Shown: in pieces, positions 1,321 to 37,661 of the stretch | How the letters are laid out: each line of letters opens with the position of its first letter | Numbering within the stretch: position 1 is the first letter of the stretch | NCBI GenBank assembly: GCA_964481355.1 | Contig: CAYZWQ010000003.1 | Coordinates: 1 to 37,661, forward strand | Source of the DNA: an uncultured Chitinophagales bacterium | GTDB lineage: Bacteria > Bacteroidota > Rhodothermia > Balneolales > CAYWCV01 | Reading direction: 5' to 3' | Length of the DNA: 37,661 nt | Position numbers and translations under genes: made by a program | Notes under the pieces: model-generated | Database searches by the model: none | What the model was told of the DNA's origin: nothing | Seen by the model: the letters and a program-made list of their open reading frames with translations, nothing else

Positions 1321-3339
1321 CTATCGCAACACGGTCATCTTCATGGTCTGGGTCTCGCCTCCCATGCGAGCCCGTATGAAGTACACACCCGAGCGCTGCG
1401 CCGTCGCATCCCACAGGATATGCTGCCGCCCTGGCTGCACCTGCGCCCGCAGGAGCCCCTGAACGACCCTTCCCTGCACATCGACCACATCGACGATGAG
1501 CAGCCCCGATTGCTCCACCGTCACAGGGATATACCCCGTTGGATTGAACGGATTGGGATATCCCGGCTCCATGGTGAACATCGACGGAATGTCCAGGTTC
1601 GAGTCATCGATCGAGGTCAACGACTCCTGACGGAACAGTAGGTTGACATTTGGATCGATCTCGATGTCGGTCCACGCAAATCCGGGCATGAGCTCGAAAG
1701 ACTGCGCACCCTCAGTCACATGAACCGTCATGACAGTGTCACGATCGGCCGACGATACTCTCACATCGAGAGGGAACTCGAACACGGGCACGGAGCTGTG
1801 AGATCCTGCGTGGCGGATGTCGAGACGGAGGCCGCCGGGGGATCCTGCGGCCGGGCGATAGTTCACATTCAGTATGGGGTAACCTTCGCCATACACCCAC
1901 TGATCAAAAAATCTGCCAAGCGCCACTCCGGATGCAGCCTCCATGACGCGCCGAAAATCGTCGGTTGATGCCGACGCATAGGCGTACGTTTCAAGGTAGG
2001 AGCGCAACCCGGCGAAGAAGCCCTCGTCGCCCACGTGCACGCGGAGCATGTTGAGCACCCAGGCGGCCTTTCGGTAGGTGAGACGGGTGTCGAACATGCG
2101 GCTCAGGTTACCGGCTGCGACCTCCGACTCCGGCAGGTACACGCTGCCACCGGGTTGGGCCAAGACCTGCTCACGGCGGACCCGCAGCCAATTCCGGAAA
2201 TCATCCTCACCCAAAAAGTACTTCAAAGGCAGACCCTCCGAGAGCGTGGCAATGCCCTCCTGAATCCAAAGATCGCTCCACGTCGCATTGGTCACTTTGT
2301 TTCCAAACCATTGGTGCGCCAACTCATGCGCCACCAAAAAGAATCCCAGGTTGGCCATCGAGCTGATGGTCTGGTGCTCCATACCGCCGGCACTCCTTCC
2401 GAACTGAGCGTGACCATAGCGTTCATCCCGAAACGGGTACGGTCCATACAGCTCCCAAAAAAGATCCATCAATCCAACAGTCTGCTGGGCATCCTGTAGC
2501 AGAGATTGCAGATCTTGCCCTTTGTACACATAGTTATCGATGGGAAATGAATCACCATCCGGTGACTGGTAGGGCAGCGTGAATACGTCATACTCGGCAA
2601 TGGCCATCGATATGAGGTAAACGGAGATAGAGTAACGATGTTTCCATGTGTAGGTGGAGTGATGATCGTCATCTTGTTTGGCAACAAGCAGTCCGTTCGA
2701 CACTGCCATGAGGGGCTTAGGCACTGTGATGCGCATGAGCAGACTGTCGAGCTTGTCGGCAGGGTCGTTCGTTGTGGGGAACCAATCCCTGGCTCCGAAC
2801 GGCTGGTTGAGCGTCCATACAATTGGTCCGTTGCCATTCGTCGAAAATGTGACACTGCCAAATCCGCTTGTAACAGGCTTGCCGGAGTAGGATATACGCA
2901 GTGTATGGTCACCCTCCGAGAACCCTCCTGACGGAGCGATCACCAACACGTCGGAACCTTGCCTTTGAAAGGGAACTTCGCTGCCTGACACGTCGCGGAT
3001 GTAAGCTATCTGAAGCGCGTCGGACAACTGCATCCGAATGGACTCGGTAGCATGCAACAAATGAATCCTCTTGACGGAGGTTGCGCTGATGGTGCCCGAG
3101 CCGGGGTCGACGGATATGTCGAGATCCATCGAGGTCACATCGAGCCCATTTTGTACGGCGGATGAACCGACTAGCATTTTTGTGGTAGCAATCCTAGATC
3201 GGGGCTCGGTGATGGACGGATCCTCGCCGAAATTCCGAATCTTTACCTGTGCTTGGGCCACAACGTGCGAGAATGCACAAAAAAAGAGGATGGGTGTCAA
3301 CAATACCCGAAAATAATTGGACGATATGTTCTCGCACAT
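1321..3339 (-). CDS. M1-family zinc aminopeptidase with C-terminal T9SS (Por) sorting domain
   Basis: GGMEH plus HELAHQWFGN...WIQEG form the gluzincin HExxH-X18-E signature. The ATG at 3339 gives the signal peptide ...ILFFCAFSHVVAQA (alternative ATG at 3381). The last ~80 aa (YPNPFNP...GVYFIRARMGGETQTMKMTVLR) look like a T9SS CTD. Confidence 0.85.
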   Translation of the reverse strand: MCENISSNYFRVLLTPILFFCAFSHVVAQAQVKIRNFGEDPSITEPRSRIATTKMLVGSSAVQNGLDVTSMDLDISVDPGSGTISATSVKRIHLLHATESIRMQLSDALQIAYIRDVSGSEVPFQRQGSDVLVIAPSGGFSEGDHTLRISYSGKPVTSGFGSVTFSTNGNGPIVWTLNQPFGARDWFPTTNDPADKLDSLLMRITVPKPLMAVSNGLLVAKQDDDHHSTYTWKHRYSISVYLISMAIAEYDVFTLPYQSPDGDSFPIDNYVYKGQDLQSLLQDAQQTVGLMDLFWELYGPYPFRDERYGHAQFGRSAGGMEHQTISSMANLGFFLVAHELAHQWFGNKVTNATWSDLWIQEGIATLSEGLPLKYFLGEDDFRNWLRVRREQVLAQPGGSVYLPESEVAAGNLSRMFDTRLTYRKAAWVLNMLRVHVGDEGFFAGLRSYLETYAYASASTDDFRRVMEAASGVALGRFFDQWVYGEGYPILNVNYRPAAGSPGGLRLDIRHAGSHSSVPVFEFPLDVRVSSADRDTVMTVHVTEGAQSFELMPGFAWTDIEIDPNVNLLFRQESLTSIDDSNLDIPSMFTMEPGYPNPFNPTGYIPVTVEQSGLLIVDVVDVQGRVVQGLLRAQVQPGRQHILWDATAQRSGVYFIRARMGGETQTMKMTVLR

Positions 3340-3421
3340 GGCCGTATAACGATGTTTTGACGAAGATACGTATATTATCATGCCTCAAATGGCATAATTC
3401 CCTATCACCGATGTATTTCGC

Positions 3422-27535: not shown

Positions 27536-28270
27536 GTGACGTTCGAAGGACTCCCCGTAACCCTCATGCGCCGCCGTGGCCAACGCAAGCTGCGATTGGC
27601 CATCCGTAACGGCGTGATCACCGTTTCGGGTCCATGGTGGGTGAGCAATAAGGAGCTGACCACCTTTTTGGAGCATCAACGCGAATGGGTGCAATCTTCG
27701 CTGGCAAAAAGGGAGATGCGCACTCGCGAGCTGCTCGATAAAGCCGACGACGTCTTACCCGACTTGCTTTACCTGGGCACGGCTTACCCTGTGGTCATCA
27801 CCCACGACGCCTCGGTACGGGCAGGGCATACCCACATCGATATTGAGGGAACATCAGTTGTTATACGCTATCCCGAGTGGACACCCGACCACCTGCACGT
27901 CGAACAGAATCTAGCCGAAATTAAGCGTATCATCAGCCTTTGGCTGCTCGACAAAGCCAGAGGTCACCTTGCCAGACGCACCCATGAACTTGCCGGCGAA
28001 CACGGATTCCACTTTGAACGGCTATTCATTCGCAGCCAGACCACCAAATGGGGTACATGTTCCTCGAAAAAGAACCTGTCGCTGAATCGCAAGCTCATCC
28101 AGTGCCCCGAAATGGTGATCGACTACCTGATCATTCACGAGCTGTGCCACCTCAAAGAGATGAACCACAGCGCCCGCTATTGGGCGCATGTGGCAGAACA
28201 CTATCCGAACTACAGGGATGCCGAAGCCTGGCTCAAGCGGTACGGCAATGTGGTGTTTGGGAACTATTAG
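27536..28270 (+). CDS. YgjP-like (DUF45 / M48-related) zinc metallopeptidase
   Basis: HELCHLKEMNHS HExxH motif near the C-terminus. RKLRLAIRNGVITVSGPWWVS N-terminal pattern is typical of DUF45. GTG start. The stop overlaps the convergent secretin stop. Confidence 0.8.
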   Translation: MTFEGLPVTLMRRRGQRKLRLAIRNGVITVSGPWWVSNKELTTFLEHQREWVQSSLAKREMRTRELLDKADDVLPDLLYLGTAYPVVITHDASVRAGHTHIDIEGTSVVIRYPEWTPDHLHVEQNLAEIKRIISLWLLDKARGHLARRTHELAGEHGFHFERLFIRSQTTKWGTCSSKKNLSLNRKLIQCPEMVIDYLIIHELCHLKEMNHSARYWAHVAEHYPNYRDAEAWLKRYGNVVFGNY

Positions 28271-29544
28271 TCCTTGATGCGCTTCAGGTTCACTTCGCGG
28301 ATCACATTGCGCCCACGGTTAAGCTCATCTTCAAGCGGACTGAGCTTCATATCAAAACGCTCGCGAAGGGTAGGCACCAACGTTGCCTTGATCACAACTA
28401 CCAGCTCCTTCTCGCGATAGTCCTTCGAGTTGTAGCCGAACAGATAGCGCAGGCCAAAGAACCAGGGTGGAAGATCCTTCAGGAAGGGTATGCCACGACG
28501 GATGATGAGCTCCTCGGTTTCGTACAAGCCGGCAACGACCGTAGACTCTCCGCTGTACAGCAACACCTGGGTTGATGCCTGCTGCTTGTTGATGATGGTG
28601 CTCACCGGATCGGGCGCACCTGTCGAACGCTCGGCCTTGATGTTCAGTAGGATAAACGTCGTGTCGGAATAGGAGATCACGTTGGGCGTGACGGTCAGAA
28701 TCGTACCGGTCTTATAGAACTCGTCCGTCACGTTGCCGGCGAAGTCGCGCTGTTTGATCGAAATATCCTGACCAACCTGCACGTCTCCAGCCTGGCCGTC
28801 CATCACCTTGATACGGGGCGACGAGAGTATTTGACCTGCATTGTTGGCCTCGAGCGCACTTAAGAGGGCAGTAACCTCCCAGTCGCTGGTTCCCAAATCG
28901 GGTGTCACCCCGACAATGAAGTTCTCGAGGGTGACGCCACCGGCATTCAGATTCGTGACGGAAACGATTCCGTCGTTGATGACCGACCAGTCGATTCCAA
29001 TTTCGCGCAAAATTCGGCGGTTGCCCTCGAAAAAGATCGCGGAGATCTCCACCTCACGGGTGTCGAGGTCGGGGATGAAGTCGGCGGTCATGTTCGTCTG
29101 ACGGCGAACATCAACCGGCTCGATGCGAGCCGTTGGGGTTGTCGGGGTTGTGCGCGTGGTGTCAGCCCTGGGCGTATCGGTCGGCCGCAGTACGATCTCG
29201 ATCGACTGCGGATACTCCATTATCGCCAGATCATGTGCATTGGCGATGTACTCGAGCGCCTGACGCCAATGCATGTATGGGATGCTGAACCCGATCGGAC
29301 CCGTGCGATTCGTGCGGTCGATGAGGGGTTTCTCTGCAAAACGGCGCGAGAAGCCTCCCAAAATCTGCAACGCCTGCGGGAAGGTGGTCTCGGCGGCAAG
29401 CGTCACCATCTCGTCGGGGTTGGTGTACTCGCGAATCGGTGGGTTCACTTGGCCGTGCACCGGTGCCACGACTGCCAGCACTCCTGTCAGCGCCAGTGCA
29501 ACACAGATTCCTGAAATCGGTTTAAGCATCCTGTTCATATACAT
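28267..29544 (-). CDS. pilQ: Small secretin (PilQ/GspD family), 425 aa
   Basis: Signal peptide ...LAVVAPVHGQ. Secretin core begins EVEISAIFFEGNRRILREIGIDW, with LSALEANNAGQILSSPRIKVMDGQ. C-terminal GIPFLKDLP...LFGY....REKELVVVIKATLV. AAGGA SD upstream (the ATG at 29538 is also possible). Confidence 0.85.
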   Translation of the reverse strand: MYMNRMLKPISGICVALALTGVLAVVAPVHGQVNPPIREYTNPDEMVTLAAETTFPQALQILGGFSRRFAEKPLIDRTNRTGPIGFSIPYMHWRQALEYIANAHDLAIMEYPQSIEIVLRPTDTPRADTTRTTPTTPTARIEPVDVRRQTNMTADFIPDLDTREVEISAIFFEGNRRILREIGIDWSVINDGIVSVTNLNAGGVTLENFIVGVTPDLGTSDWEVTALLSALEANNAGQILSSPRIKVMDGQAGDVQVGQDISIKQRDFAGNVTDEFYKTGTILTVTPNVISYSDTTFILLNIKAERSTGAPDPVSTIINKQQASTQVLLYSGESTVVAGLYETEELIIRRGIPFLKDLPPWFFGLRYLFGYNSKDYREKELVVVIKATLVPTLRERFDMKLSPLEDELNRGRNVIREVNLKRIKD

Positions 29545-29551
29545 GTTCCTT

Positions 29552-30478
29552 TTAGTTTTCGCTGATCTGGAGTGTCACAAGCTCAGTTTGTCCACCCCGG
29601 GTGATACGAAACGTGGCCGTCTTGCGCGACAGGCTGATCTCGTCGAGCGTGCCCAAATAGACGCGCCCTCCAATTGGGATGTAAACGATTTGCCTCTGTT
29701 GATCCTCGAGGTACACCCCGCTACGAACCAAACCCACAAGGGTACTGCGGTTAATGTCTGGCAAACCTTCCGAATTCGGCGGCGGACCCGTGTTTGCACG
29801 AGATGTCGTTTCGTTATCCGTCAATATCGGTTCTGGCGACGAGCCTCTTGACGGTTCAAATCGAACCAGCGGATTAAACGGATTGTGGATGGCCCTCGGC
29901 GTGTCAAAATTGATCAACAGCGCCGGATTTTCAATGCTGGTAGCACGCGTGAAATAGAAATTTACGGTCGCCTCATACAATATGAACTCCGTACCCGAGT
30001 TGTCGGTCTGTGCCGATATGCGAAGATCCGTGATCTTTGTCATCGGCTTGCTCTGCTCAAGGATGCTCATGAAATTATAGAAGGCATCGTAGGTGCCACC
30101 GCCCGACAATTTGACGCGGATGATGCCGTATTGATCTTGCAGCACCGAATCGATGAGCGTGAAGTTCAGCGAGGTCTGCGCGGCCCCCGTGTTGATGGTG
30201 CGCAGATAATCGAACATCACGGCCACATTGTTGCTCGAGAAAAACTGTTTGGTGTGGTTCTCGTACTGGAAACGCACCGTGCGAAGCTGTTCCTCAACCG
30301 ACACGTACTGACCTGTTTTCTCCGTATAGGTCTCCAAATCGGCCCTTTTTTGTTCGATTTCGGCCTTTTGCTGAATAATGGGGTCCTCATAGAAATAGCG
30401 TATGAAGGCCCAACCTCCGGCGAAGAGCACGATGATGGTGGCCAATAGAATCAATGTGTTGCGAACGGCGTACGACAT
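29552..30478 (-). CDS. PilO-like/PilP-like fusion (type IV filament alignment-complex protein)
   Basis: N-terminal TM helix (LILLATIIVLFAGGWAF), coiled-coil and a PilO-type domain. A linker carrying NPFNP follows, then a PilP-like beta domain (LVGLVRSG...VYIPIGGRVYLGTLDEISL..ATFRI). ATG at 30478 is preceded by GGGAGAG, 2 nt after the upstream stop (the ORF-track GTG is at 30484). Confidence 0.65.
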   Translation of the reverse strand: MSYAVRNTLILLATIIVLFAGGWAFIRYFYEDPIIQQKAEIEQKRADLETYTEKTGQYVSVEEQLRTVRFQYENHTKQFFSSNNVAVMFDYLRTINTGAAQTSLNFTLIDSVLQDQYGIIRVKLSGGGTYDAFYNFMSILEQSKPMTKITDLRISAQTDNSGTEFILYEATVNFYFTRATSIENPALLINFDTPRAIHNPFNPLVRFEPSRGSSPEPILTDNETTSRANTGPPPNSEGLPDINRSTLVGLVRSGVYLEDQQRQIVYIPIGGRVYLGTLDEISLSRKTATFRITRGGQTELVTLQISEN

Positions 30479-30480
30479 AG

Positions 30481-32202
30481 TCACTCTCCCGGAATTTGGA
30501 TTGCGGTTGAGTCGACAGGCACAGCCAATGAATCAGCTGCTGCCGGGTCTTGATACACCGGTCGGGGCGGGTTGAAAATCGATTCGTCAAGAACGATCTT
30601 CGTGACCAGCAATGTGAAATCATACACCGTAGGACGACCGTCACGTTCCTGAACCGAGAGGATGACGGCATTCTCGAAGCTTTCGCTGATCATCGGGATG
30701 CGGTCGCGCGACAGACTTGAACCCTGGATGAGAATACCCCCGCCCGGTTGAGATGCCAGCGATCGTATCCAGATGCTGCGGATCTCCTGCGTGGACTCAT
30801 TGATGCCGGCCATGGTGGTCGACCACTTCCGGGTTTCGGCACTGAGCTCGTCGAGAAGCCCCAATCGGGCGCTGTAGTCGTTGAAGTCGGCCATGAACTG
30901 GTCGACAGCATCCGCGATCGGCTTGGTTTCAGAAATCTGTGCATCCAGAAAACCGATGGTCTGCTGATTGCTTTCGAACTCGCGGCTGATCTCCTGAAAC
31001 CTGTAATTGAAGATCAAAGGAAAAAGTGCAATGATGCCGAGCAGCACGTAACCATGCCAGCCCAGCTTGAACACCTGTTGGCGCAGCAGTACCCGCTCCG
31101 GAACAAAACTCAGGCCCGGGAAGTCGCTCTCGCTGCCCGCTCCTGCCGCCCACGCGACACCGATGGCCCTGAGGTGATCCTGAAGCTCGCCAATTTCGAT
31201 GGTTTCGTCGATTTCGAAAATGTCAGGGTTGAACTGAAATGCCTCGACGTCGATGTCGATGAACTGCTCGCGCAGATAGTTGCCCATCTGCTCGTCGGCC
31301 GTGTCAGAGGTGATAATCACCTGGTCGAGTGTTGGTATCTTGCCGCGGTCGATCTCGAAGAGAATCTTGCTGAATACCGTTCGTACAAACTTCGGATTGT
31401 TACGGCCTTCGTTGATGACCGGCAAGATGGTGTGCACCCTCTTGCCCTGCAGGAACAAGACCGCCGTGCGCGTATCCTCGGCATGGATGATACAGGTGAA
31501 CTGCTGATCCTGAAGCTTGTAATTGGCCCGCGTCAACCCCACCAAGACAGCCTCGTCGGGGATGATCTCACGAACGTTCACCTTGCCCGTGTAGATCGGC
31601 AGGGCGGAGTCGAGGATCTCGAGCGACTCGATGTTGTTGCCAATTGAGGCAACGAAGAGCGAGCCGTCATCACGGACGTAGTAACGCAACTGATCGTTGG
31701 TCACAACCTGACCGTAGTAGGCGTTCACACGCTCTTTAAGCTCTTTTAGGGTCTTCTTTTTGCCGAGCTTCTTGTGGTTGACGTCGCTCACCACTTGGAA
31801 ATAGGTGTCGCCAATTGGGATGTTCAGGGCGACATTCACCGACTTCGGATGCTCACCGCTCAGAATTTGCGCCATTTGGCTGGCGTTCGACTCCACGTCG
31901 ATGCCCTCGAGGGCAATGTCTTTGCCCATGTCGAAATCTGATTCCAACGATGGGATTGCAGGTTTCGCCGGACCAGGCCCCGTATCGTCGTCAAGGTCGA
32001 GCAAGAGCGACGACGGCTCGATCATTTCGTCGGTTACCGTCGGTTGCGCGCTTGCGACACCTTTTCGGACGGGCGTGACGAGGTCAACCGTGTTCAAGTG
32101 CATGACCCTCATCTTGCCTTTGTTGAAGGTCACCGTTGCGACACGCAGCTTGTCGTCCTCAAGCGATATCCCAGTAGTAAGTTTGGATTTTCGGTCAAAC
32201 AT
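30481..32202 (-). CDS. PilM-like/PilN-like fusion (GspL-like topology)
   Basis: About 390 aa of cytoplasmic actin-like PilM-type region (TTGISLEDDKLRVATV...). One TM helix (GWHGYVLLGIIALFPLIF), then a ~160-aa periplasmic PilN-like coiled-coil/ferredoxin-like region. Confidence 0.65.
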   Translation of the reverse strand: MFDRKSKLTTGISLEDDKLRVATVTFNKGKMRVMHLNTVDLVTPVRKGVASAQPTVTDEMIEPSSLLLDLDDDTGPGPAKPAIPSLESDFDMGKDIALEGIDVESNASQMAQILSGEHPKSVNVALNIPIGDTYFQVVSDVNHKKLGKKKTLKELKERVNAYYGQVVTNDQLRYYVRDDGSLFVASIGNNIESLEILDSALPIYTGKVNVREIIPDEAVLVGLTRANYKLQDQQFTCIIHAEDTRTAVLFLQGKRVHTILPVINEGRNNPKFVRTVFSKILFEIDRGKIPTLDQVIITSDTADEQMGNYLREQFIDIDVEAFQFNPDIFEIDETIEIGELQDHLRAIGVAWAAGAGSESDFPGLSFVPERVLLRQQVFKLGWHGYVLLGIIALFPLIFNYRFQEISREFESNQQTIGFLDAQISETKPIADAVDQFMADFNDYSARLGLLDELSAETRKWSTTMAGINESTQEIRSIWIRSLASQPGGGILIQGSSLSRDRIPMISESFENAVILSVQERDGRPTVYDFTLLVTKIVLDESIFNPPRPVYQDPAAADSLAVPVDSTAIQIPGE

Positions 32203-32213
32203 CTGTTCGCCTT

Positions 32214-33440
32214 TTATGATACCAAATCCTTGAAACGTTTCTTATTGTTGGCGTAATTATACGCCTCCTCCATCGAAATTACACCTTCTTTGTACAATCG
32301 TTTAAGATCCTGCTCAAGGGTGTGCATTCCGAAGCCGCTGCCCTCCATGATCATCTGGTAGATTTCACCCGTGTTGTTATTGCGGATGGCCGCCTTGACC
32401 GACGTGGTGGTGAGCAGCACCTCCTTCGCAAGCGTGCGCTTTCCGTCGATGGTTGGAACCAGCTTCTGCGAAATCACGCAGGTGAGGGTGTCGGCCAGGC
32501 GGTTGCGCACACGCTCCTGCTCGTGGGTAGGCACCTCGCCAATGATACGGTCGATGCTCTCCACGGCCGAGGCGGTGTGCAGGGTCGAAAAGGTCTTGTG
32601 GCCCGAGTCGGTGATCTCCAAGGCAGTGGTGATGGTCTCCGGATCTCGAAGCTCGCCGATCATGATGATGTCGGGATCCTGACGCAGCGACTCGATGGCT
32701 CCCGACTTGAACGACATGGTGTCGCGGCCCACTTCGCGGTGACGCACGATGCACTTGATGGGCTTGTGCACCATTTCGATCGGGGAGGCGATGATCACGA
32801 TGTGCGCCTCGACCGAGCGGTTGTTGGCGTCGATGATCGAGTCGAGGGTGGCCGACTTACCCGAACCGGTGATTCCCGTCACCAAGGTCATGCCGTACTT
32901 CAGGTTCTTGAGGCTGAGCGCGGAGGCGATGACCGGGTGGAAATTCAGCCCCTTGAACGGACGGATCGAGCTGTTGATGCGGCGCATGTTGAGCGCGATG
33001 GCGTCGAGGTCGAAATACATGTTGGCACGGTAACGCTTGCTCTCACCGTCGTCGGTGTCGATCACATACGAAAAGTCCAAGTTCTTCCGCTCCATGAAGA
33101 AGTTGAACTGGGCAGGCATCAGCACCGACAGCAGCAGCACGTTCATGTCTTTGGGGTTGATCTCAGGACCCTCCAGCCATGGCGCCTTGGTGCCGTAGAT
33201 GCGGTACCAGATGCGGTTTGCCGTTCCGTTCGAGCCCATGTCGATGTCGGAGGCGTCGATGTCGTCCATGCGTAGCAACCACGTGTCGAGCAAATTGCGC
33301 AGGTAGATCAAATGGTCGTCGGGCAACTGACGGATCTTCTCGTACATGGCACGAAAAAACTCCACGCCCGTAAGGTTGCGTGGCAGCGCGTTGCGCACCG
33401 GATCAATGATGGTTCTCAAGTCCTGCATAGAGTCTGACAA
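32214..33440 (-). CDS. pilT: PilT-family hexameric ATPase (retraction-type), divergent, with N-terminal extension
   Basis: Walker A GITGSGKSAT, Walker B DPDIIMIGELRD, His box GHKTFSTLHTASA, AIRN motif remnant. Start is TTG at 33440 or ATG at 33428. Confidence 0.85.
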   Translation of the reverse strand: MSDSMQDLRTIIDPVRNALPRNLTGVEFFRAMYEKIRQLPDDHLIYLRNLLDTWLLRMDDIDASDIDMGSNGTANRIWYRIYGTKAPWLEGPEINPKDMNVLLLSVLMPAQFNFFMERKNLDFSYVIDTDDGESKRYRANMYFDLDAIALNMRRINSSIRPFKGLNFHPVIASALSLKNLKYGMTLVTGITGSGKSATLDSIIDANNRSVEAHIVIIASPIEMVHKPIKCIVRHREVGRDTMSFKSGAIESLRQDPDIIMIGELRDPETITTALEITDSGHKTFSTLHTASAVESIDRIIGEVPTHEQERVRNRLADTLTCVISQKLVPTIDGKRTLAKEVLLTTTSVKAAIRNNNTGEIYQMIMEGSGFGMHTLEQDLKRLYKEGVISMEEAYNYANNKKRFKDLVS

Positions 33441-33468: not shown

Positions 33469-34590
33469 TTAGTCTAATATATAGGTAATGTTTTGACGAA
33501 CCAATCCTGCCAATGCATCGATGTTCCGGAGGTTGGCTATTGTGGCACTGCTGTACTGGATCATAACGTTACCGTTAACGGTGATGTCGACCTCTTCGTC
33601 CACGATAAACTGTGGGAGTGGGGCTGTTGGATCTGGGGATGGTGTGTAAATGATGCCCCCAAAAATTTTTGGAATACCAGATGCGATATTAACTGTGCCC
33701 ATACCGATGATTAAACCGTGGAACTCAGGGTTTCCGGCAAGCTCCAATTCGCCACCGGGTTCAACGATAATTACACCCGCATGCGGACCCGAACTTAAGT
33801 TAAAATGCCCTCCAGCCTTGATGACCATGATCATTGGATCTGCAGGTGTACCTGGACTAAATTGTTTGTCACACACCGATGTACCGGCATTCCGGGGTTG
33901 TGTGCAGTTAAAGTCGGCATTGGCCGATGCAAAATTGATGAACTCAAGCAACTCGGCGTCGTTCATGTTCGGATCGTGCACCACGCTGGGTTCACTCGTG
34001 CCCGCACCGATGATATTATCGAGCTGTTGATTACCCAATACATCCAGCACACTCTCTTCCCCCTCAGCCGTACTTGTGGTGATACCGGGTAAGTGTTGTG
34101 CATACGTTGGCTCCGAGCCATCCGGATTTTTGTCAAATCCTGAAATCAAAAATGAGTTTCCCTTGAAATCGATGTCAATATTGGATCCATAGATGCCCAC
34201 GGCACCGTTTGCAGGTGGGATGCCGTCGGTCTGGTAAACCCTTGCGATCACACGTGCCGTCACACCGTCGCTGGTGCCGGTGCTGCGGATCTCCACATAA
34301 TCTTCAGGTATGTTGGCATCGTGCGTTTCGTCGAGCACGACCACCGTAGCCGAATTGTTGCCGAAGTTGTACGTCATCGGGCTGTTGGTCGCGACCCTCC
34401 ACTCCCTGTCGGCACCCAACGAAAGCATGGCACGCTCCAAGCCGCTGTTGGCCGCATTGCGAGCCTGCGACAAGTGCACATAGCTCACCGAAAGCTGGTC
34501 GATCTGTGTCTGACGGTTCATCACGCCGATCTGGGTCAGGCTGAAGACCAAGAACATGGATGTGACGATAATTAACATGCTGCGTCCCAT
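33469..34590 (-). CDS. PilX-like minor-pilin-like protein (PilX_N-type N-terminus plus large C-terminal domain)
   Basis: MGRSMLIIVTSMFLVFSLTQIGVMNRQ...ARNAANSGLERAMLSL fits the PilX N-domain pattern. C-terminal GVIIVEPGGELELAGNPEFHGLIIGMGTVNI..G.PKIFGGIIY motif is seen in PilX/TadG-like proteins. GAGG SD 7 nt upstream. Confidence 0.6.
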   Translation of the reverse strand: MGRSMLIIVTSMFLVFSLTQIGVMNRQTQIDQLSVSYVHLSQARNAANSGLERAMLSLGADREWRVATNSPMTYNFGNNSATVVVLDETHDANIPEDYVEIRSTGTSDGVTARVIARVYQTDGIPPANGAVGIYGSNIDIDFKGNSFLISGFDKNPDGSEPTYAQHLPGITTSTAEGEESVLDVLGNQQLDNIIGAGTSEPSVVHDPNMNDAELLEFINFASANADFNCTQPRNAGTSVCDKQFSPGTPADPMIMVIKAGGHFNLSSGPHAGVIIVEPGGELELAGNPEFHGLIIGMGTVNIASGIPKIFGGIIYTPSPDPTAPLPQFIVDEEVDITVNGNVMIQYSSATIANLRNIDALAGLVRQNITYILD

Positions 34591-34599
34591 AATGCTACC

Positions 34600-35145
34600 T
34601 CAGTTTTGTAAACCCCTGGGGGTAATATCTGTTTCCCAATACGACCGTGCCCATTCGTTCATGTACGACACGTTGCTCTCCACGATCATCCGCACACGAA
34701 TGCGGGTCACTTCCGACGGCGTGAGCGTCGAGTCGCCGTCGGCATCGAAATACCGATACCTAAAACTGACAATTCCACTTCCAAAATCGGTGGTGTCGCT
34801 GCCCGCAATTCGGTATAGCTTACGGTCGCGGGGGTTTGGCGATTCTGTGTCCTGTACATTCTGGTCCCAAACCCAACGCACGGTCTGAATGGTGCCGTTG
34901 ACGTCGGCCCTGCTGAACATCAGATTGTGTTCGGCGAGCTGCACGATCTGGCTGCCAGGAGCCACACCAGCCCCCACCTGCCTTAAGTCGGCAGTGACGT
35001 AGGCCGAAACCGCCTCCACTTTGGCCTTGGTGGCAAACTGCATCGTTTTGATACCGGCACTCTGTGTCACCCGCGTGTTCAGGCCGATCATCGCAAGCAT
35101 CAAAAGCCCGCCAATAATCGCACTGATAACTAAACTCATGTTCAT
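34600..35145 (-). CDS. PilW/GspJ-like minor-pilin-like protein lacking a canonical prepilin leader
   Basis: MNMSLVISAIIGGLLMLAMIGL... then VTADLRQVGAG, which parallels the PilW motif ...RDLRMAG. GGAGG SD 6 nt upstream. The start overlaps the upstream stop (ATGA). Confidence 0.6.
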   Translation of the reverse strand: MNMSLVISAIIGGLLMLAMIGLNTRVTQSAGIKTMQFATKAKVEAVSAYVTADLRQVGAGVAPGSQIVQLAEHNLMFSRADVNGTIQTVRWVWDQNVQDTESPNPRDRKLYRIAGSDTTDFGSGIVSFRYRYFDADGDSTLTPSEVTRIRVRMIVESNVSYMNEWARSYWETDITPRGLQN

Positions 35146-35654
35146 TCGAGACCTCCTGTGTGGTGCTCAAGAACCGACTTTTGGGCCCTGACGAAGGCAT
35201 TGGTCAAAACCCCGATACGGCGCTGTTGCAGATCGAGTATGTTTATAATAAAGATAGTAAAAAGCCGCTCCGGTTTGGAGCGGAAATAGTCCATCACGAT
35301 GGACCGTCGGAATTTGATCACCGTCGTCGGCTCTAGAGCAATCACACTGGCCATACGAGATCCTTTGCCGAACAGGAAGACCTCCTCGAGGAAGCTGCCC
35401 GGACCAAAAGTACCCAGGTTAATTCCATCGCGGCTCTGTGACACTTTGCCGTCGAGAATAAGAAACGCCGTTTCGCAGGTCGGGTCGATTTCGTCGATCA
35501 CCCGTTGGCTGCGTTCGAATTTCTCCACCTCTCCGGCATGCAGGAGCTCATTCAAATCTTCGTGGGGAAAATTCCTGAAGATGGGGGGCGACTGAGCCAG
35601 CACCTTGTTCAGCTGCATCATCACGTGGTCGTCGTGTAAGCTTAGGTTCATCAT
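35142..35654 (-). CDS. Stand-alone cyclic-nucleotide-binding (CAP effector domain) protein, no DNA-binding domain
   Basis: 170 aa. Pattern FRNFPHEDLNELLHAGEVEKFERSQRVIDE....AFLILDGKV...GTFGPGSFLEEVFLFGKGSRMASVIALEPTTVIKF matches a cNMP-binding beta-roll with the phosphate-binding-cassette Glu/Arg, followed by a C-helix. No HTH follows. Confidence 0.75.
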   Translation of the reverse strand: MMNLSLHDDHVMMQLNKVLAQSPPIFRNFPHEDLNELLHAGEVEKFERSQRVIDEIDPTCETAFLILDGKVSQSRDGINLGTFGPGSFLEEVFLFGKGSRMASVIALEPTTVIKFRRSIVMDYFRSKPERLFTIFIINILDLQQRRIGVLTNAFVRAQKSVLEHHTGGLE

Positions 35655-35663
35655 GGCTTCGTG

Positions 35664-36179
35664 TCAATAGTATGTTTTTACATAGCTCAGGGTTACCGGA
35701 CCCCTCATGTCGGGATGGTTCACGGTTACCTGAAGTCGTTTATGCGAAGTTTTCGTGTTCGCATTGGTGGTCGGCGATCCGGCCTGTACATAGAATACGG
35801 TCGCGGTGAGGATGTAGGTTCCATAACCTGTGGCCCTGGTGATGTTCAAGCCATTGTAGTCGTCAAAATCGTTGAATTCGGGATAGACTTCGCCGGCATC
35901 GGGTCCCAAGCTGTCGGGCGCAGTGAATCCGGATGGAATAAGTGCCGTAGGAATCCGTGGATCCCTTAGCCGGTCGATCCTGTAGTCGACACGCTTGTCG
36001 AATACACGCACCCTCGCCTCCTCGACGATGCTCTGGGCCATGCTGATGCCGTTGTATTCCACTTCCGACTCGACGGTCATCTCGGTGGTGTTAACCATGG
36101 AACGGTTGATGGTGTTGGCGAACAGCCCGAACACCAAAACCGCGGCAATCACATATAAAACGTCCGATATGTCATTCAT
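35664..36179 (-). CDS. PilV/GspI-like minor-pilin-like protein lacking a canonical prepilin leader
   Basis: MNDISDVLYVIAAVLVFGLF N-terminal helix. Has the FNDFDDYNG motif and the ...ATVFYV... pattern typical of PilV-type minor pilins. GGAG SD 6 nt upstream. Confidence 0.55.
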   Translation of the reverse strand: MNDISDVLYVIAAVLVFGLFANTINRSMVNTTEMTVESEVEYNGISMAQSIVEEARVRVFDKRVDYRIDRLRDPRIPTALIPSGFTAPDSLGPDAGEVYPEFNDFDDYNGLNITRATGYGTYILTATVFYVQAGSPTTNANTKTSHKRLQVTVNHPDMRGPVTLSYVKTYY

Positions 36180-36218: not shown

Positions 36219-37661
36219 TCAGGCATCGATGGTGATCGCAATGATCTCCTCGATGGTGGTCAGACCCTCCTTGATACGCTCGCGTCCGCTGGCACGCATG
36301 GTGAGCATGCCGTTGCTTATGGCGATGTCTCGGATTTGGTCTTCATCGACATTTTCGCCGGCGTTAAAAATCGCATGTTTGATCTTCTTGTCGAAAAATA
36401 AGGCTTCCATGATCGCAATACGGCCCTTGTAGCCGTTGCGGCATTTGTTGCAGCCCACCGCCTTGTAAAATTTGGTTGAGGCAATCTCCTCGTCGGTGAA
36501 CCCGATCGATCGTGGCACGGCAGGTTCCATGTCGGTGATCTCTTCCTTGCACACATTGCATAATTTGCGCACCAATCGCTGGGCCATCACCAGATTGATG
36601 GCACTTGCAATAAGGAAGGGCTCGACACCCATCTTGAACAGACGGGAGATGGCGCTCGGCGCGTCGTTAGTGTGCAGGGTCGAAAACGTGAGGTGACCCG
36701 TGTTGGCCAACTTGATGGCAATTTCGGCGGTCTTCAAATCCCGGATCTCGCCCACGAGCACGATGTCGGGGTCATGCCGCAAAATGCCTCGCATGGCTTC
36801 GTCGAAGCTCATCTTCTCGGAGATCTTGAGCTGGCGCGCACCCTTGATAAGATATTCGACCGGCTCTTCGACCGTGAGTACGTTCACCTGGGGGTTGATC
36901 ACAGTGTACAGTGCGGCGACAAGGGTCGTCGACTTACCCGAACCGGTCGGACCGGTGATGATGATCATCCCCTGTGGCAGGTGGATGGCCTTCACGATTT
37001 GGGCCTGGGCCTGGTGCTGCAGACCCAGCAAGTTCAGGTCGGTGATGACCTTGCGATCGTCGAGGATCCGGATAACGATGGACTCGAGCTTGCGTTCGTA
37101 CTCCTGGCCCACAATCGGCATGATGGAGACGCGGAAACGCAGCTGGTGTTCGTCGATGCGCCGCTGGATGAAGCCGTCCTGAGACATGTCGCGGACGAAT
37201 CGGTCCACGTTGCGGGTCTTGTCTTTCACGACCGCCGACAGGGCCTCCGACTTCACGCCGGTCTGCGTGTGCCACAGCCCCAGCTTGCCGTCCTGGCGGA
37301 AGTAGATGTCGGTGGTGTTGCCCACGCCGGGTATGATGTGGATGTCGCTCACACCCTGACGCACGGCCTCGACCAGCATGCCCTCGACGAGGGAGTTGAG
37401 CATGCTCTGGTTGATTTCGGCGTCGATCTCGGCCTCGTCGATGCCTTCCTCTTCCTGCGATATAGTGCCAGTGTCGAACTCGATGTCCTCGAGCAAGTCG
37501 AGGAACTCGTTCTTCTTCTCGTACACCACACCGGTGATGGCATCGAACACGTCGAGACGCATGTAAGCCACCTCGTACGACTTGAGGTTCAGCGAGTTCG
37601 CGATTACCAAAATCTCTGGATCGGTCGGGTCGGCGGCACCGATGACGAGCGATCCCCTTTC
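36219..37661 (-). CDS. pilB: PilB/GspE-family assembly ATPase, 5'-truncated by the window edge
   Basis: Walker A GPTGSGKSTT, Asp box TVEEPVEY, Walker B DPDIVLVGEIRD, His box GHLTFSTLHTNDA, and tetracysteine CNVC...CNKC. The reading frame stays open from 37610 to 37661 (ERGSLVIGAADPTDPEI, T2SSE_N-like), so the real start lies beyond the window. Confidence 0.92.
   Translation of the reverse strand, partial: ERGSLVIGAADPTDPEILVIANSLNLKSYEVAYMRLDVFDAITGVVYEKKNEFLDLLEDIEFDTGTISQEEEGIDEAEIDAEINQSMLNSLVEGMLVEAVRQGVSDIHIIPGVGNTTDIYFRQDGKLGLWHTQTGVKSEALSAVVKDKTRNVDRFVRDMSQDGFIQRRIDEHQLRFRVSIMPIVGQEYERKLESIVIRILDDRKVITDLNLLGLQHQAQAQIVKAIHLPQGMIIITGPTGSGKSTTLVAALYTVINPQVNVLTVEEPVEYLIKGARQLKISEKMSFDEAMRGILRHDPDIVLVGEIRDLKTAEIAIKLANTGHLTFSTLHTNDAPSAISRLFKMGVEPFLIASAINLVMAQRLVRKLCNVCKEEITDMEPAVPRSIGFTDEEIASTKFYKAVGCNKCRNGYKGRIAIMEALFFDKKIKHAIFNAGENVDEDQIRDIAISNGMLTMRASGRERIKEGLTTIEEIIAITIDA

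What the first reader, a model, noticed from the sequence alone, without database searches (positions are those of the whole stretch)
33469..36179. Three minor-pilin-like proteins with no class III (prepilin) signal: no Gly-1, no Glu+5
SD motifs (GGAG, GGAGG, GAGG at 6-7 nt) define the three start codons well. The N-termini are MNDISD-VLYVIAAVLVFGLF, MNMS-LVISAIIGGLLMLAMIGL and MGRS-MLIIVTSMFLVFSLTQIG. Downstream regions resemble PilV (FNDFDDYNG), PilW (ADLRQVGAG) and PilX (ARNAANSGLERA...). None has the G|F/M-T-L-x-E processing and methylation motif, and the hydrophobic helix starts only 4-6 residues after Met. They are either unprocessed bitopic inner-membrane proteins that mimic a pilus-priming complex, or they are handled by a non-canonical peptidase. 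Leaderless pseudopilins would change how the filament tip or priming complex is extracted from the membrane.
Basis: partly seen in the sequence, partly recalled or inferred. Interest (0 to 1): 0.7.

Follow-up and report, generated by a model that had tools for sequence, protein, structure and literature searches.

The report
Leaderless minor pilins, divergent pilus
Three genes inside a type IV pilus operon encode the small "minor pilins" expected to start the filament, yet they and every other pilin found for this lineage's system have no room for the leader peptide that textbook type IV pilins need, so this pilus may be built without the usual processing enzyme.

Summary
They lie between a PilB-like ATPase gene and PilT, PilM/N-like, PilO-like and secretin genes. 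In-frame stops 14, 8 and 4 codons upstream, with no start codon between, make a leader impossible.

B models as a pilin; its best solved-structure matches are XcpW/GspJ. It is a full-length homologue of canonical N_methyl minor pilins that sit beside an A24 prepilin peptidase in deltaproteobacterial MAGs. C is homologous to PilX-like proteins with 13-20-residue leaders. A has pilin architecture and precedes B in 91/94 cases, but no detectable PilV/GspI homology.

The missing leader is lineage-wide. It holds for 144 B-family representatives, 89 A, 87 B and 44 C N-termini, and 22 putative major pilins ("MGQQQLLL…"). Named members are Balneolaceae and Ignavibacteriaceae. In 903 kb of linked DNA there is no canonical signal or A24-like motif.

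Two corrections: C keeps Met-Gly-Arg, and A has Asp6 at the column that carries Gln5 in relatives (possibly the Glu5 counterpart).

Most likely these are GspI/J/K-type priming pilins used without prepilin-peptidase cleavage. Cleavage of a 1-4-residue leader by a distant peptidase is not excluded.

The parts
36219..37661 (-). PilB/GspE-like assembly ATPase gene, cut by the window end (592 aa in relatives)
   Evidence: PF00437 T2SSE E 6.6e-99. TIGR02538 type_IV_pilB 398.8 bits, below that model's cut-off. The reading frame runs to the window edge. Full-length 592-aa orthologues are in L001 and L014.
35664..36179 (-). ORF A, 171 aa: pilin-like protein in the GspI/PilV gene position; N-terminus MNDISD followed by the hydrophobic helix
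   Evidence: GGAG lies 6 nt upstream and an in-frame stop 14 codons upstream. The AF2 model has pLDDT 80.9, with helix 3-56 followed by a 4-stranded sheet. There is no significant PDB fold match. 39 homologues were found by sequence search, and at least 256 relatives among the first 600 pattern matches in metagenomes. B follows A in 91/94 cases.
35142..35654 (-). cNMP-binding-domain protein, 170 aa, between A and B; its stop overlaps the B start by 4 nt
   Evidence: PF00027 E 3.8e-11. It is conserved at this position in L001, L005, L016, L025 and L027, and decayed to a 96-aa remnant in L014/L015.
34600..35145 (-). ORF B, 181 aa: GspJ/PilW-type minor pilin without a leader; N-terminus MNMS followed by the hydrophobic helix
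   Evidence: GGAGG lies 6 nt upstream and an in-frame stop 8 codons upstream. The AF2 model has pLDDT 86.2, helix 3-55 plus a beta-sheet. Foldseek top hits are a chain of the XcpGHIJK pseudopilus model (9a1f_S), XcpW (3nje_B), a chain of the XcpVWX complex (6utu_H) and Thermus pilin TTHA1219, E 7e-5 to 7.6e-4, prob 1.0. The family profile matches the canonical N_methyl protein L010 4753-5346 at E 1.4e-15 over profile positions 7-183. 827 cluster representatives match at E<=1e-3.
33469..34590 (-). ORF C, 373 aa: PilX/GspK-position protein; N-terminus MGRS followed by the hydrophobic helix and then a large C-terminal domain with two Cys
   Evidence: GAGG lies 7 nt upstream and an in-frame stop 4 codons upstream. 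17 homologues were found. The distant ones (P0015-17, E 3e-6 to 4.5e-5) and the loci L006-L013 carry 13-20-residue leaders ending in Gly and sit directly after PilW-like genes. PilX_N hits on the Rokubacteria relatives are weak only.
32214..33428 (-). PilT-family retraction ATPase gene
   Evidence: TIGR01420 pilT_fam 320.4 bits, above its 319.1 cut-off. The ATG at 33428 gives the 404-aa form seen in relatives.
30481..32202 (-). 573-aa PilM/PilN-like platform protein (assigned from position and conservation only)
   Evidence: No Pfam or NCBIfam family hits. It is conserved between PilT and the PilO-like gene in all full-length related loci.
29552..30484 (-). PilO/GspM-like protein, 310 aa
   Evidence: PF04350 PilO E 2.6e-4 (21.6 bits, just under the cut-off) and NF040576 GspM E 6e-8.
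28267..29544 (-). Short secretin, 425 aa
   Evidence: PF00263 Secretin E 9e-30. TIGR02515 PilQ E 3.2e-25.

Best explanation
A, B and C are the minor-pilin module of a divergent type IVa-like pilus. They correspond to GspI/J/K of type II secretion and to PilV/W/X of type IV pili. The machine is found in Balneolaceae, Ignavibacteriaceae and many unnamed metagenome lineages. Its full operon reads: major pilin(s), PilC, PilB, A, (cNMP-binding protein), B, C, PilT, PilM/N-like, PilO-like, secretin.

By analogy with GspI-J-K, the three proteins probably sit in the inner membrane through their N-terminal hydrophobic helix. There they would form the tip complex on which PilB and PilC polymerise the major pilin, and PilT would retract the filament.

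The unusual feature is that every pilin found for this system is translated with essentially no leader. The initiator Met falls within about 1-3 residues of the position where a canonical pilin is cut. In the best-anchored case, the B family aligned to canonical homologues, Met1 of the 'MSSLLD' type aligns with Gly-1 and Asp6 with Glu5. The window's B begins at the +2 position and has Ser in place of Glu5.

I infer that the proteins are used as made, after Met excision at most, without prepilin-peptidase cleavage or N-methylation. The Glu5/N-terminal-amine pair would then be replaced in many members by Gln5 or Asp/Glu6, or dropped entirely.

Shown: gene structure, absence of any possible leader, B's fold and homology, C's homology, synteny, and lineage-wide conservation.
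Inferred: tip-complex role, membrane topology, lack of processing.
For: - Gene structure and starts.
- No class III motif or N_methyl hit in the window.
- B has a pilin model whose best matches are XcpW/GspJ. B is a full-length homologue of an N_methyl-positive protein that lies next to a Peptidase_A24 gene, a GspH-like gene and a PilV-position gene in L010.
- C is homologous to proteins with PilX-type leaders located after PilW-like genes.
- A has a pilin-like model and precedes B in 91/94 cases.
- The operon is conserved in L001, L014, L016, L031, L036, L041, L066 and L101.
- Leaderless N-termini across the families:
  - 0 of 144 B-family representatives have a canonical motif, and 4 have K/R in the first six residues.
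  - 0 canonical motifs occur among 22 pilin, 89 A, 87 B and 44 C unique N-termini.
  - An in-frame stop lies within 10 codons of the hydrophobic core in 17/22, 53/89, 60/87 and 32/44 respectively.
- Register against canonical homologues.
- Gln or Glu sits at exactly position 5 in 62/89 A proteins and in 22/22 putative major pilins. In Gln5-type A proteins, position 4 is bulky or otherwise not small (V, I, F, M, Q, N) in 12/55, which does not fit a cleavage site.
- No A24-like motif occurs in 903 kb of linked DNA, whereas the same screen finds A24 and canonical pilins in the control loci L009-L012.
- The Melioribacter roseus genome paper reports pilT, pilQ, pilB and pilC but no pilA or pilD (PMC3534657).
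Against: - Gly is conserved in places that look like a vestigial or still functional cleavage site:
  - Gly2 in 22/22 pilins and 42/44 C proteins.
  - Gly2 followed by Phe or Tyr in 20 of 41 'MG' type B proteins.
  - Gly4 before Gln5 in 39/55 A proteins.
  - Ala/Ser/Gly at C position 4, after Arg/Lys, in 29/43.
- The whole genomes could not be searched, so a prepilin peptidase encoded elsewhere is not excluded. At least one Ignavibacteriales MAG is reported with a canonical pilin (PMC7399161).
- A has no significant structural or profile match to any solved pilin.
- C was not modelled.
- By my own reading of the sequence, B has no positive charge before the helix and a net +2 charge after it, so the positive-inside rule does not predict the N-in topology a pilin needs.
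- The register of the major pilin against Geobacter PilA and GspG (weak hits, E 0.1-0.8) places Leu8, not Gln5, at the Glu5 position.
- There are no experimental data for any member.
Confidence: 0.55

Rival explanations
1. The proteins are the same minor pilins, but they keep a minimal class III signal of 1-4 residues (Met-Gly in the major pilin and in many B proteins, Met-x-x-Gly in many A proteins, Met-Gly-Arg/Lys-Ala/Ser/Gly in C). A prepilin peptidase encoded elsewhere in the genome still removes it. Cleavage before Gln would give an N-terminal Gln able to cyclise to uncharged pyroglutamate, which would make Glu5 unnecessary. The window's own A and B, which have Ser where relatives have Gly, would be cut poorly or not at all.
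For: - Gly is conserved immediately before Gln (pilin 22/22; A 39/55 of the Gln5 type).
- Gly-Phe or Gly-Tyr occurs in 20/41 'MG' type B proteins.
- In C, Arg/Lys at position 3 is followed by Ala/Ser/Gly at position 4 in 29/43, resembling the R-G cleavage context of its long-leader homologues.
- A24 peptidases need not be linked to pilus operons.
- A canonical pilin is reported in one Ignavibacteriales MAG.
- Own knowledge: Gly-1 is the main determinant for PilD cleavage, and archaeal pilins with Gln+1 carry pyroglutamate.
Against: - No A24-like motif occurs in 903 kb around about 90 such loci, while the same screen finds it in 3 of 8 control loci.
- pilD is reported absent from M. roseus.
- 12/55 Gln5-type A proteins have V, I, F, M, Q or N at the putative -1 position.
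- The window's A and B have no Gly in the first 11 residues.
- N-terminal length in the B family varies from -1 to +3 residues relative to the canonical mature end, which argues against trimming to a common end.
- Leaders this short, and without charge, are not known substrates as far as I know.
Confidence: 0.3
2. The hydrophobic N-termini are ordinary Sec signal peptides or signal anchors. The proteins are periplasmic or bitopic accessory factors of the pilus machine (PilN/PilO/PilP-like), not filament subunits.
For: - No pilin Pfam or NCBIfam hit for A, B or C.
- A has no significant structural match to a pilin.
- C has a large non-pilin-looking C-terminal domain.
- A Ser/Ala-rich stretch follows the helix in the putative major pilins.
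Against: - B matches XcpW/GspJ with probability 1.0, and the next-best matches are non-significant (E >= 0.14) and unrelated.
- B is a full-length homologue of N_methyl minor pilins.
- AF2 predicts one continuous 53-54-residue helix in both A and B, as in pilins, not a cleavable signal peptide.
- Except in C, the hydrophobic segments are about 20 residues long and lack the positive n-region of Sec signal peptides.
- Separate PilM/N-like and PilO-like genes are already present.
- The only PDB hits of the major-pilin profile are type IV pilins.
Confidence: 0.07
3. The system is a decaying remnant. The pilins lost their leaders because the pilus is no longer made, consistent with the 'incomplete' type IV pilus gene set reported for Melioribacter.
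For: - The cNMP-binding gene inside the module is decayed in L014/L015.
- pilA and pilD are reported missing in M. roseus.
Against: - All nine genes are intact in the window and in many distant relatives, with the same order.
- The N-termini are among the best conserved parts of proteins that otherwise share only 25-50% identity.
- The major pilin is present in up to four tandem intact copies.
- 827 B-family clusters at 50% identity exist.
Confidence: 0.03

Closest known systems
GspI-GspJ-GspK (XcpV-W-X) pseudopilus tip complex of type II secretion, and the PilV-PilW-PilX core minor pilins of type IVa pili
   Same: - Three consecutive genes of increasing size (171, 181, 373 aa) next to the assembly ATPase gene.
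- The B model's best solved-structure matches are XcpW/GspJ and a chain of the XcpVWX complex.
- B and C are homologous to canonical PilW-like and PilX-like proteins that are adjacent in control loci.
- C, like GspK and PilX, has no acidic residue near position 5.
   Different: - No leader peptide and no Gly-Phe-Thr-Leu-x-Glu motif.
- No N_methyl, T2SSJ, PilW or PilX_N Pfam hit.
- A shows no detectable similarity to GspI or PilV.
- No GspH/FimU-like fourth minor pilin in the operon.
- A cNMP-binding gene is inserted between A and B.
Bacteroidetes 'T2SS' of Cytophaga hutchinsonii, which clusters with T4aP (PMC5553014; Denise et al. 2019, PMC6668835)
   Same: - Found in the same broad Bacteroidetes-related group of bacteria (T9SS sorting domain in the window).
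- T4aP-related ATPase, platform and secretin genes.
- Highly divergent minor pseudopilins and PilM/N/O-like proteins that escape Pfam.
   Different: - The Cytophaga cluster encodes a recognisable GspG (PF08334) and a Peptidase_A24 gene inside the cluster.
- None of the four t2s genes described for that cluster is a PilT-type retraction ATPase.
- The present system has PilT, no recognisable pilin domain, and no linked A24 gene.
'Incomplete' type IV pilus gene set of Melioribacter roseus (PMC3534657)
   Same: [quoted passage not shown] That is the picture standard annotation would give for the operon described here.
- B-family members occur in Ignavibacteriaceae MAGs.
   Different: - I could not fetch the M. 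roseus genome to confirm that it carries the A-B-C module or the MGQQQ pilin.
- The paper treats the set as incomplete rather than as a variant system.
Archaeal class III signal peptides (own knowledge, not tested here)
   Same: - Shorter and more variable leaders than in bacteria.
- Gly, Ala or Ser tolerated at -1.
- Frequent Gln at +1, which becomes pyroglutamate.
- Glu5 is not universal.
   Different: - Archaeal leaders still carry Lys or Arg at -2 and are several residues long.
- The machinery here (PilT, secretin, PilM/N/O-like) is bacterial T4aP-like.

Membership tests
Type IV pilin / class III signal (PF07963 N_methyl) | Short positively charged leader ending in Gly-1, cleaved by a prepilin peptidase | tested here: not met
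   - In-frame stops lie 14, 8 and 4 codons upstream of the three starts.
- A and B have no Gly in their first 11 residues.
- C has Met-Gly-Arg-Ser only.
- The PF07963 model does not hit, although it does hit the canonical B homologue in L010 at 28.9 bits.
Type IV pilin / class III signal (PF07963 N_methyl) | Glu at mature position 5 | tested here: inconclusive
   - B has Ser4 at the column aligned to Glu5 of canonical homologues.
- C has no acidic residue there, as in GspK and PilX.
- A has Asp6, at the column that holds D/E6 or Gln5 in most of its family (81/89 have D/E or Gln at position 5 or 6). The register against canonical pilins is inferred.
Type IV pilin / class III signal (PF07963 N_methyl) | About 50-residue N-terminal helix (hydrophobic first half) packed on an antiparallel beta-sheet | tested here: met
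   - AF2 models show helix 3-55 plus sheet in B (pLDDT 86.2).
- AF2 models show helix 3-56 plus 4 strands in A (pLDDT 80.9).
- C was not modelled.
GspJ / PilW minor pilins | GspJ-type fold and sequence homology to bona fide members | tested here: met
   - For B, the top Foldseek matches are a chain of the XcpGHIJK pseudopilus model (9a1f_S), XcpW (3nje_B) and a chain of the XcpVWX complex (6utu_H), at E 7e-5 to 7.6e-4, prob 1.0.
- The B profile hits L010 4753-5346 (N_methyl positive) at E 1.4e-15 over positions 7-183.
- No family-level Pfam model (T2SSJ, PilW, PpdB) hits the window protein.
PilX / GspK minor pilins | PilX_N-type N-terminus (PF14341), no Glu5, gene directly after pilW/gspJ | tested here: inconclusive
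   - PF14341 does not hit C. It hits its Rokubacteria relatives only weakly (E 0.001-0.008, below the cut-off).
- Gene position and absence of an acidic residue are as expected.
- Homology to long-leader PilX-like proteins: E 3e-6 to 4.5e-5 against the whole database.
- The fold was not predicted.
PilV / GspI minor pilins | Sequence or fold similarity to GspI/PilV | tested here: not met
   - For A, the best Foldseek match has E 0.27 and is unrelated.
- A profile search of PDB sequences found nothing relevant.
- hhalign against the PilV-position proteins of L010 and L011 gives probability 8%.
- Only gene position and a JGI 'PulG' label on one homologue point this way.
Type IVa pilus machine | PilB, PilC, PilT, PilM/N/O-type platform and secretin encoded together | tested here: met
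   - In the window: PilB-like, PilT (TIGR01420 above its cut-off), PilO/GspM-like and secretin.
- PilC (PF00482) and a putative major pilin lie just upstream in L001, L014 and L016.
Type IVa pilus machine | Dedicated prepilin peptidase (Peptidase_A24) in the genome | not testable with these tools
   - None in the 37.7-kb window.
- No A24-like motif in 903 kb of related loci.
- Whole genomes could not be fetched.
- pilD is reported absent in M. roseus.

The most novel reading that the evidence does not exclude
A widespread clade of bacterial type IV pili (Balneolaceae, Ignavibacteriaceae and many uncultured relatives) works with no prepilin peptidase at all. Its major pilin and its I/J/K-type minor pilins are translated 'born mature', and Gln5 (or no polar residue) replaces the Glu5/N-methyl-amine pair. 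This would be the first type IV filament system lacking the two features regarded as defining the superfamily: the class III signal peptide and its peptidase.
Probability: 0.45. Interest if true: 0.85.

Novelty: new variant of a known kind. Interest (0 to 1): 0.7.

Why it matters
By my own knowledge of the field, the class III signal peptide and its dedicated peptidase are treated as universal hallmarks of type IV filaments. Genome surveys find pilins by that motif.

The data here show a large, conserved set of pilus operons whose pilins cannot carry such a leader. This has three consequences:
- It would explain why annotation reports these organisms as having pilB, pilC, pilT and pilQ but no pilA or pilD (Melioribacter).
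- It shows that motif-based tools would miss whole families of pilins. No Pfam or NCBIfam pilin model recognises them.
- It gives a natural experiment on what the leader, N-methylation and Glu5 are actually for in membrane extraction and filament packing.

The question can be tested directly in cultured members such as Halalkalibaculum roseum.

Tried and rejected
- Pfam and NCBIfam scans of A, B and C gave nothing useful.
- Profile searches of A, B and C against PDB sequences gave nothing relevant.
- Foldseek of the A model gave no significant match.
- hhalign of the A family against the PilV-position proteins of the control loci gave probability 8%. The PilV label for A is therefore not adopted as membership.
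The A alignment was used instead.
- The idea that the Cytophaga/Bacteroidetes 'T2SS' is the same system was rejected. That cluster has a recognisable GspG and an A24 peptidase gene in the cluster.
- I considered that Gln5 of the major pilin is the exact Glu5 counterpart. The weak alignment to Geobacter PilA and GspG places Leu8 there instead, so this is left open.
- Literature searches for leaderless pilins and for Balneolales or Bacteroidota type IV pili found no description of this system.

Full report
**What is in the window**

All genes of interest are on the minus strand. In transcription order they are:
- A PilB/GspE-like ATPase gene that runs off the window end (36219-37661). PF00437 hits at E 6.6e-99.
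- ORF A (35664-36179, 171 aa).
- ORF B (34600-35145, 181 aa).
- ORF C (33469-34590, 373 aa).
- PilT. TIGR01420 scores 320.4 bits, above its cut-off.
- A 573-aa protein with no family hit, in the PilM/N position.
- A PilO/GspM-like protein.
- A short secretin (PF00263).

Gaps between consecutive genes are 39, 9, -4, 9 and 40 nt, which fits one operon. The rest of the window holds housekeeping genes and an M1 peptidase with a T9SS sorting domain. There is no Peptidase_A24.

**Checking the observation**

The quoted N-termini, internal motifs and Shine-Dalgarno sequences are all correct. The starts are not a matter of gene calling. In-frame stops lie 14, 8 and 4 codons upstream of A, B and C, with no ATG, GTG or TTG in between. 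A relaxed class III pattern finds nothing in any of the six frames of the window. Neither Pfam nor NCBIfam recognises A, B or C.

**What the three proteins are**

*ORF B.* The AlphaFold2 model (pLDDT 86.2) has a helix spanning residues 3-55 packed on a beta-sheet. Its only significant matches among solved structures are:
- a chain of the XcpGHIJK pseudopilus model (9a1f_S),
- XcpW, the GspJ of Pseudomonas (3nje_B),
- a chain of the XcpVWX complex (6utu_H),
- the Thermus pilin TTHA1219.

These have E 7e-5 to 7.6e-4 and probability 1.0. The next-best matches are non-significant (E >= 0.14) and unrelated.

A profile of the B family scored against 1.84 billion cluster representatives finds 827 proteins at E<=1e-3 and 539 at E<=1e-10. 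The same family profile hits a 198-aa protein in a deltaproteobacterial MAG (L010 4753-5346) at E 1.4e-15, across positions 7-183. That protein starts MQYCKLRNVAG|FTLTELMVAMG and scores 28.9 bits on PF07963 N_methyl. It lies just downstream of a Peptidase_A24 gene, a GspH-like gene and an N_methyl gene in the PilV position. B is therefore a GspJ/PilW-type minor pilin.

*ORF C.* It has only 17 detectable homologues in 5.8 billion proteins. The distant ones (P0015-17, E 3e-6 to 4.5e-5) and the loci found in genomes (L006-L013; Deltaproteobacteria, Rokubacteria) carry 13-20-residue leaders ending in Gly. They have no Glu5, and in the deltaproteobacterial loci they sit directly after PilW-like genes. 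PF14341 PilX_N hits the Rokubacteria relatives only weakly. C is therefore the PilX/GspK-position protein.

*ORF A.* It models (pLDDT 80.9) as a helix spanning residues 3-56 followed by a four-stranded sheet, which is pilin architecture. However, Foldseek, a PDB profile search and hhalign against PilV-position proteins give nothing significant. Its assignment rests on the model, on its position and on automatic labels. JGI names one homologue 'pseudopilin PulG', and UniProt names the Halalkalibaculum roseum homologue 'Type II secretion system protein'.

**The system and its distribution**

Related contigs give the part of the operon missing from the window. Upstream of PilB lie PilC (PF00482) and a 141-164-aa protein with an invariant start, MGQQQLLLVILVT…VGIATVVAINTF (L001, L014, L016).

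A metagenome scan seeded with the A family returned 80 further loci. I searched all held loci with local profile HMMs. The results were:
- A is followed by B in 91 of 94 testable cases.
- B is followed by a detectable C in 39 of 79 testable cases.
- 26 loci also hold the core machine in the same order.
- The MGQQQ protein is present in up to four tandem copies (L041, L066, L101).

A profile of that protein has only five PDB hits, all weak (E 0.1-3.5). All five are type IV pilins or pseudopilins: Geobacter PilA, GspG and PilE1. I take it to be the major pilin.

Named members of the families come from Halalkalibaculum roseum and other Balneolaceae, and from Ignavibacteriaceae MAGs. One close relative is labelled Chitinophagales.

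**The missing leader is lineage-wide**

Among 144 full-length B-family representatives:
- none has a canonical motif,
- four have Lys or Arg in the first six residues,
- the hydrophobic segment starts at residues 1-8 in 142.

The table below covers the loci, counted by unique N-termini and independently of gene calling.

| Family | Unique N-termini | In-frame stop within 10 codons of hydrophobic core | Canonical motif |
|---|---|---|---|
| Major pilin | 22 | 17 | 0 |
| A | 89 | 53 | 0 |
| B | 87 | 60 | 0 |
| C | 44 | 32 | 0 |

As an internal control, the same motif screens were applied to the deltaproteobacterial comparison loci. There they find canonical class III pilins and a Peptidase_A24 gene, confirmed by Pfam. 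In 903 kb of the other loci they find neither.

**Register and residual signal features**

Aligned to its canonical homologues, the 'MSSLLD' type of B places Met1 at Gly-1 and Asp6 at Glu5. The window's B starts at +2 and has Ser4 at the Glu5 column. The 'MGFSTLxD' type is about three residues longer.

In the A family:
- 55 of 89 N-termini have Gln at exactly position 5,
- 7 have Asp or Glu at position 5,
- 18 have Asp or Glu at position 6, including the window's MNDISD.

All 22 pilins have Gln at position 5. C proteins have no acidic or amide residue there, like GspK and PilX, but start Met-Gly-(Arg/Lys) almost invariably, with Ala, Ser or Gly at position 4 in 29 of 43.

**Mechanism**

*Shown.* This is a complete T4aP-like gene set with a retraction ATPase. 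It includes a conserved A-B-C module whose B and C members descend from, or share ancestry with, class III minor pilins. All pilins of the system lack room for a leader.

*Inferred.* A, B and C form the GspI-J-K-like priming and tip complex. They are used without prepilin-peptidase cleavage or N-methylation, after Met excision at most. Gln5 or Asp/Glu6 stands in for Glu5, or nothing does.

I give this reading a confidence of about 0.55. The supporting points are:
- the absence of linked A24 genes,
- the reported absence of pilA and pilD, despite pilB, pilC, pilT and pilQ, in the Melioribacter roseus genome (PMC3534657),
- the variable N-terminal length within the B family,
- the 22% of Gln5-type A proteins with a bulky or otherwise not small residue at the would-be -1 position.

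*Main rival (about 0.3).* A 1-4-residue leader is still removed by a peptidase encoded elsewhere. This is suggested by the conserved Gly before Gln or Phe, and by the Arg/Lys plus small-residue pair in C. It is not excluded, because whole genomes could not be searched and one Ignavibacteriales MAG is reported to have a canonical pilin (PMC7399161).

*Unexplained.* B has no N-terminal positive charge and a positively charged stretch after the helix. Its expected N-in topology therefore does not follow from the positive-inside rule.

**Comparison with what is known**

The closest functional analogue is the GspI-J-K / PilV-W-X tip complex.

The Bacteroidetes 'T2SS' of Cytophaga, which Denise et al. 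place with T4aP, is a different system. It has a recognisable GspG and an A24 peptidase gene inside the cluster.

I found no paper describing leaderless type IV pilins or this module. The families are 'hypothetical protein' in nearly all sources.

**Verdict**

I rate this as a new variant of a known kind: a type IV pilus lineage whose pilins are leaderless. Interest is 0.7. The decisive tests are an A24 search in complete genomes of carriers, and N-terminal analysis of the pilins from a cultured member.

Noticed in passing
window 35142-35654 (-): A stand-alone cNMP-binding-domain protein (170 aa) is encoded between minor pilin genes A and B, and its stop overlaps the B start by 4 nt. It is conserved at this position in several relatives but has decayed to a 96-aa remnant in L014/L015. 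It may link cyclic-nucleotide signalling to pilus assembly.
   Followed up: partly
L001 4402-4875; L014 4661-5155; L016 4711-5136; tandem copies in L041, L066, L101: The putative major pilin of the system lies just outside the window, upstream of PilC. It has an invariant N-terminus MGQQQLLL (22/22 unique sequences), no charged residue before the helix, two Cys near the C-terminus in L001 and L014, and up to four tandem paralogues. Its only PDB profile hits (weak) are type IV pilins.
   Followed up: partly
window 35850-35906 (-), residues about 92-110 of ORF A: The A family has a highly conserved acidic loop, LGPDAGEVYPxFNDFDDYNG, with Asp104, Asp106 and Asp107 invariant in 30 sequences. It looks like a possible metal (calcium) binding site. 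No known motif was matched.
   Followed up: no
P0146 (338 aa, JGI metagenome): This is a natural fusion protein. The B family matches its residues 157-335. Its N-terminus, MGHQELLLVLV, resembles the A and major-pilin N-termini and has Glu at position 5 counted from Met. The A-like assignment of the N-terminal half was not tested. It is consistent with A and B acting together.
   Followed up: no
L018 10001-20522 (Halalkalibaculum roseum YR4-1, JAALLT010000003.1): In this cultured Balneolaceae the A-B module is followed by three tandem C paralogues. Next come four small secreted proteins (two with weak DUF4402 hits), a 274-aa protein and a protein of more than 1100 aa. This arrangement resembles a chaperone-usher-type fibre cluster. 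No core pilus machine genes lie within 10 kb.
   Followed up: no
window 30481-32202 (-) and 29552-30484 (-): The 573-aa protein in the PilM/PilN position has no Pfam or NCBIfam hit at all. The PilO/GspM-like protein carries a C-terminal extension of about 130 residues. Both are conserved across the related operons.
   Followed up: no
window 1321-3381 (-): An M1-family peptidase carries a T9SS C-terminal sorting domain (Por_Secre_tail, E 2.4e-5, 24.9 bits, below the 27-bit cut-off). This suggests the organism belongs among the Bacteroidetes-related bacteria that use type IX secretion.
   Followed up: no
L021 8474-9832 and L022 621-1979: In an A-B-C locus that lacks core machine genes, a sigma-54-dependent response regulator (PilR-like) lies immediately upstream of A. 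This hints at sigma-54 control of the minor pilin module in some lineages.
   Followed up: no
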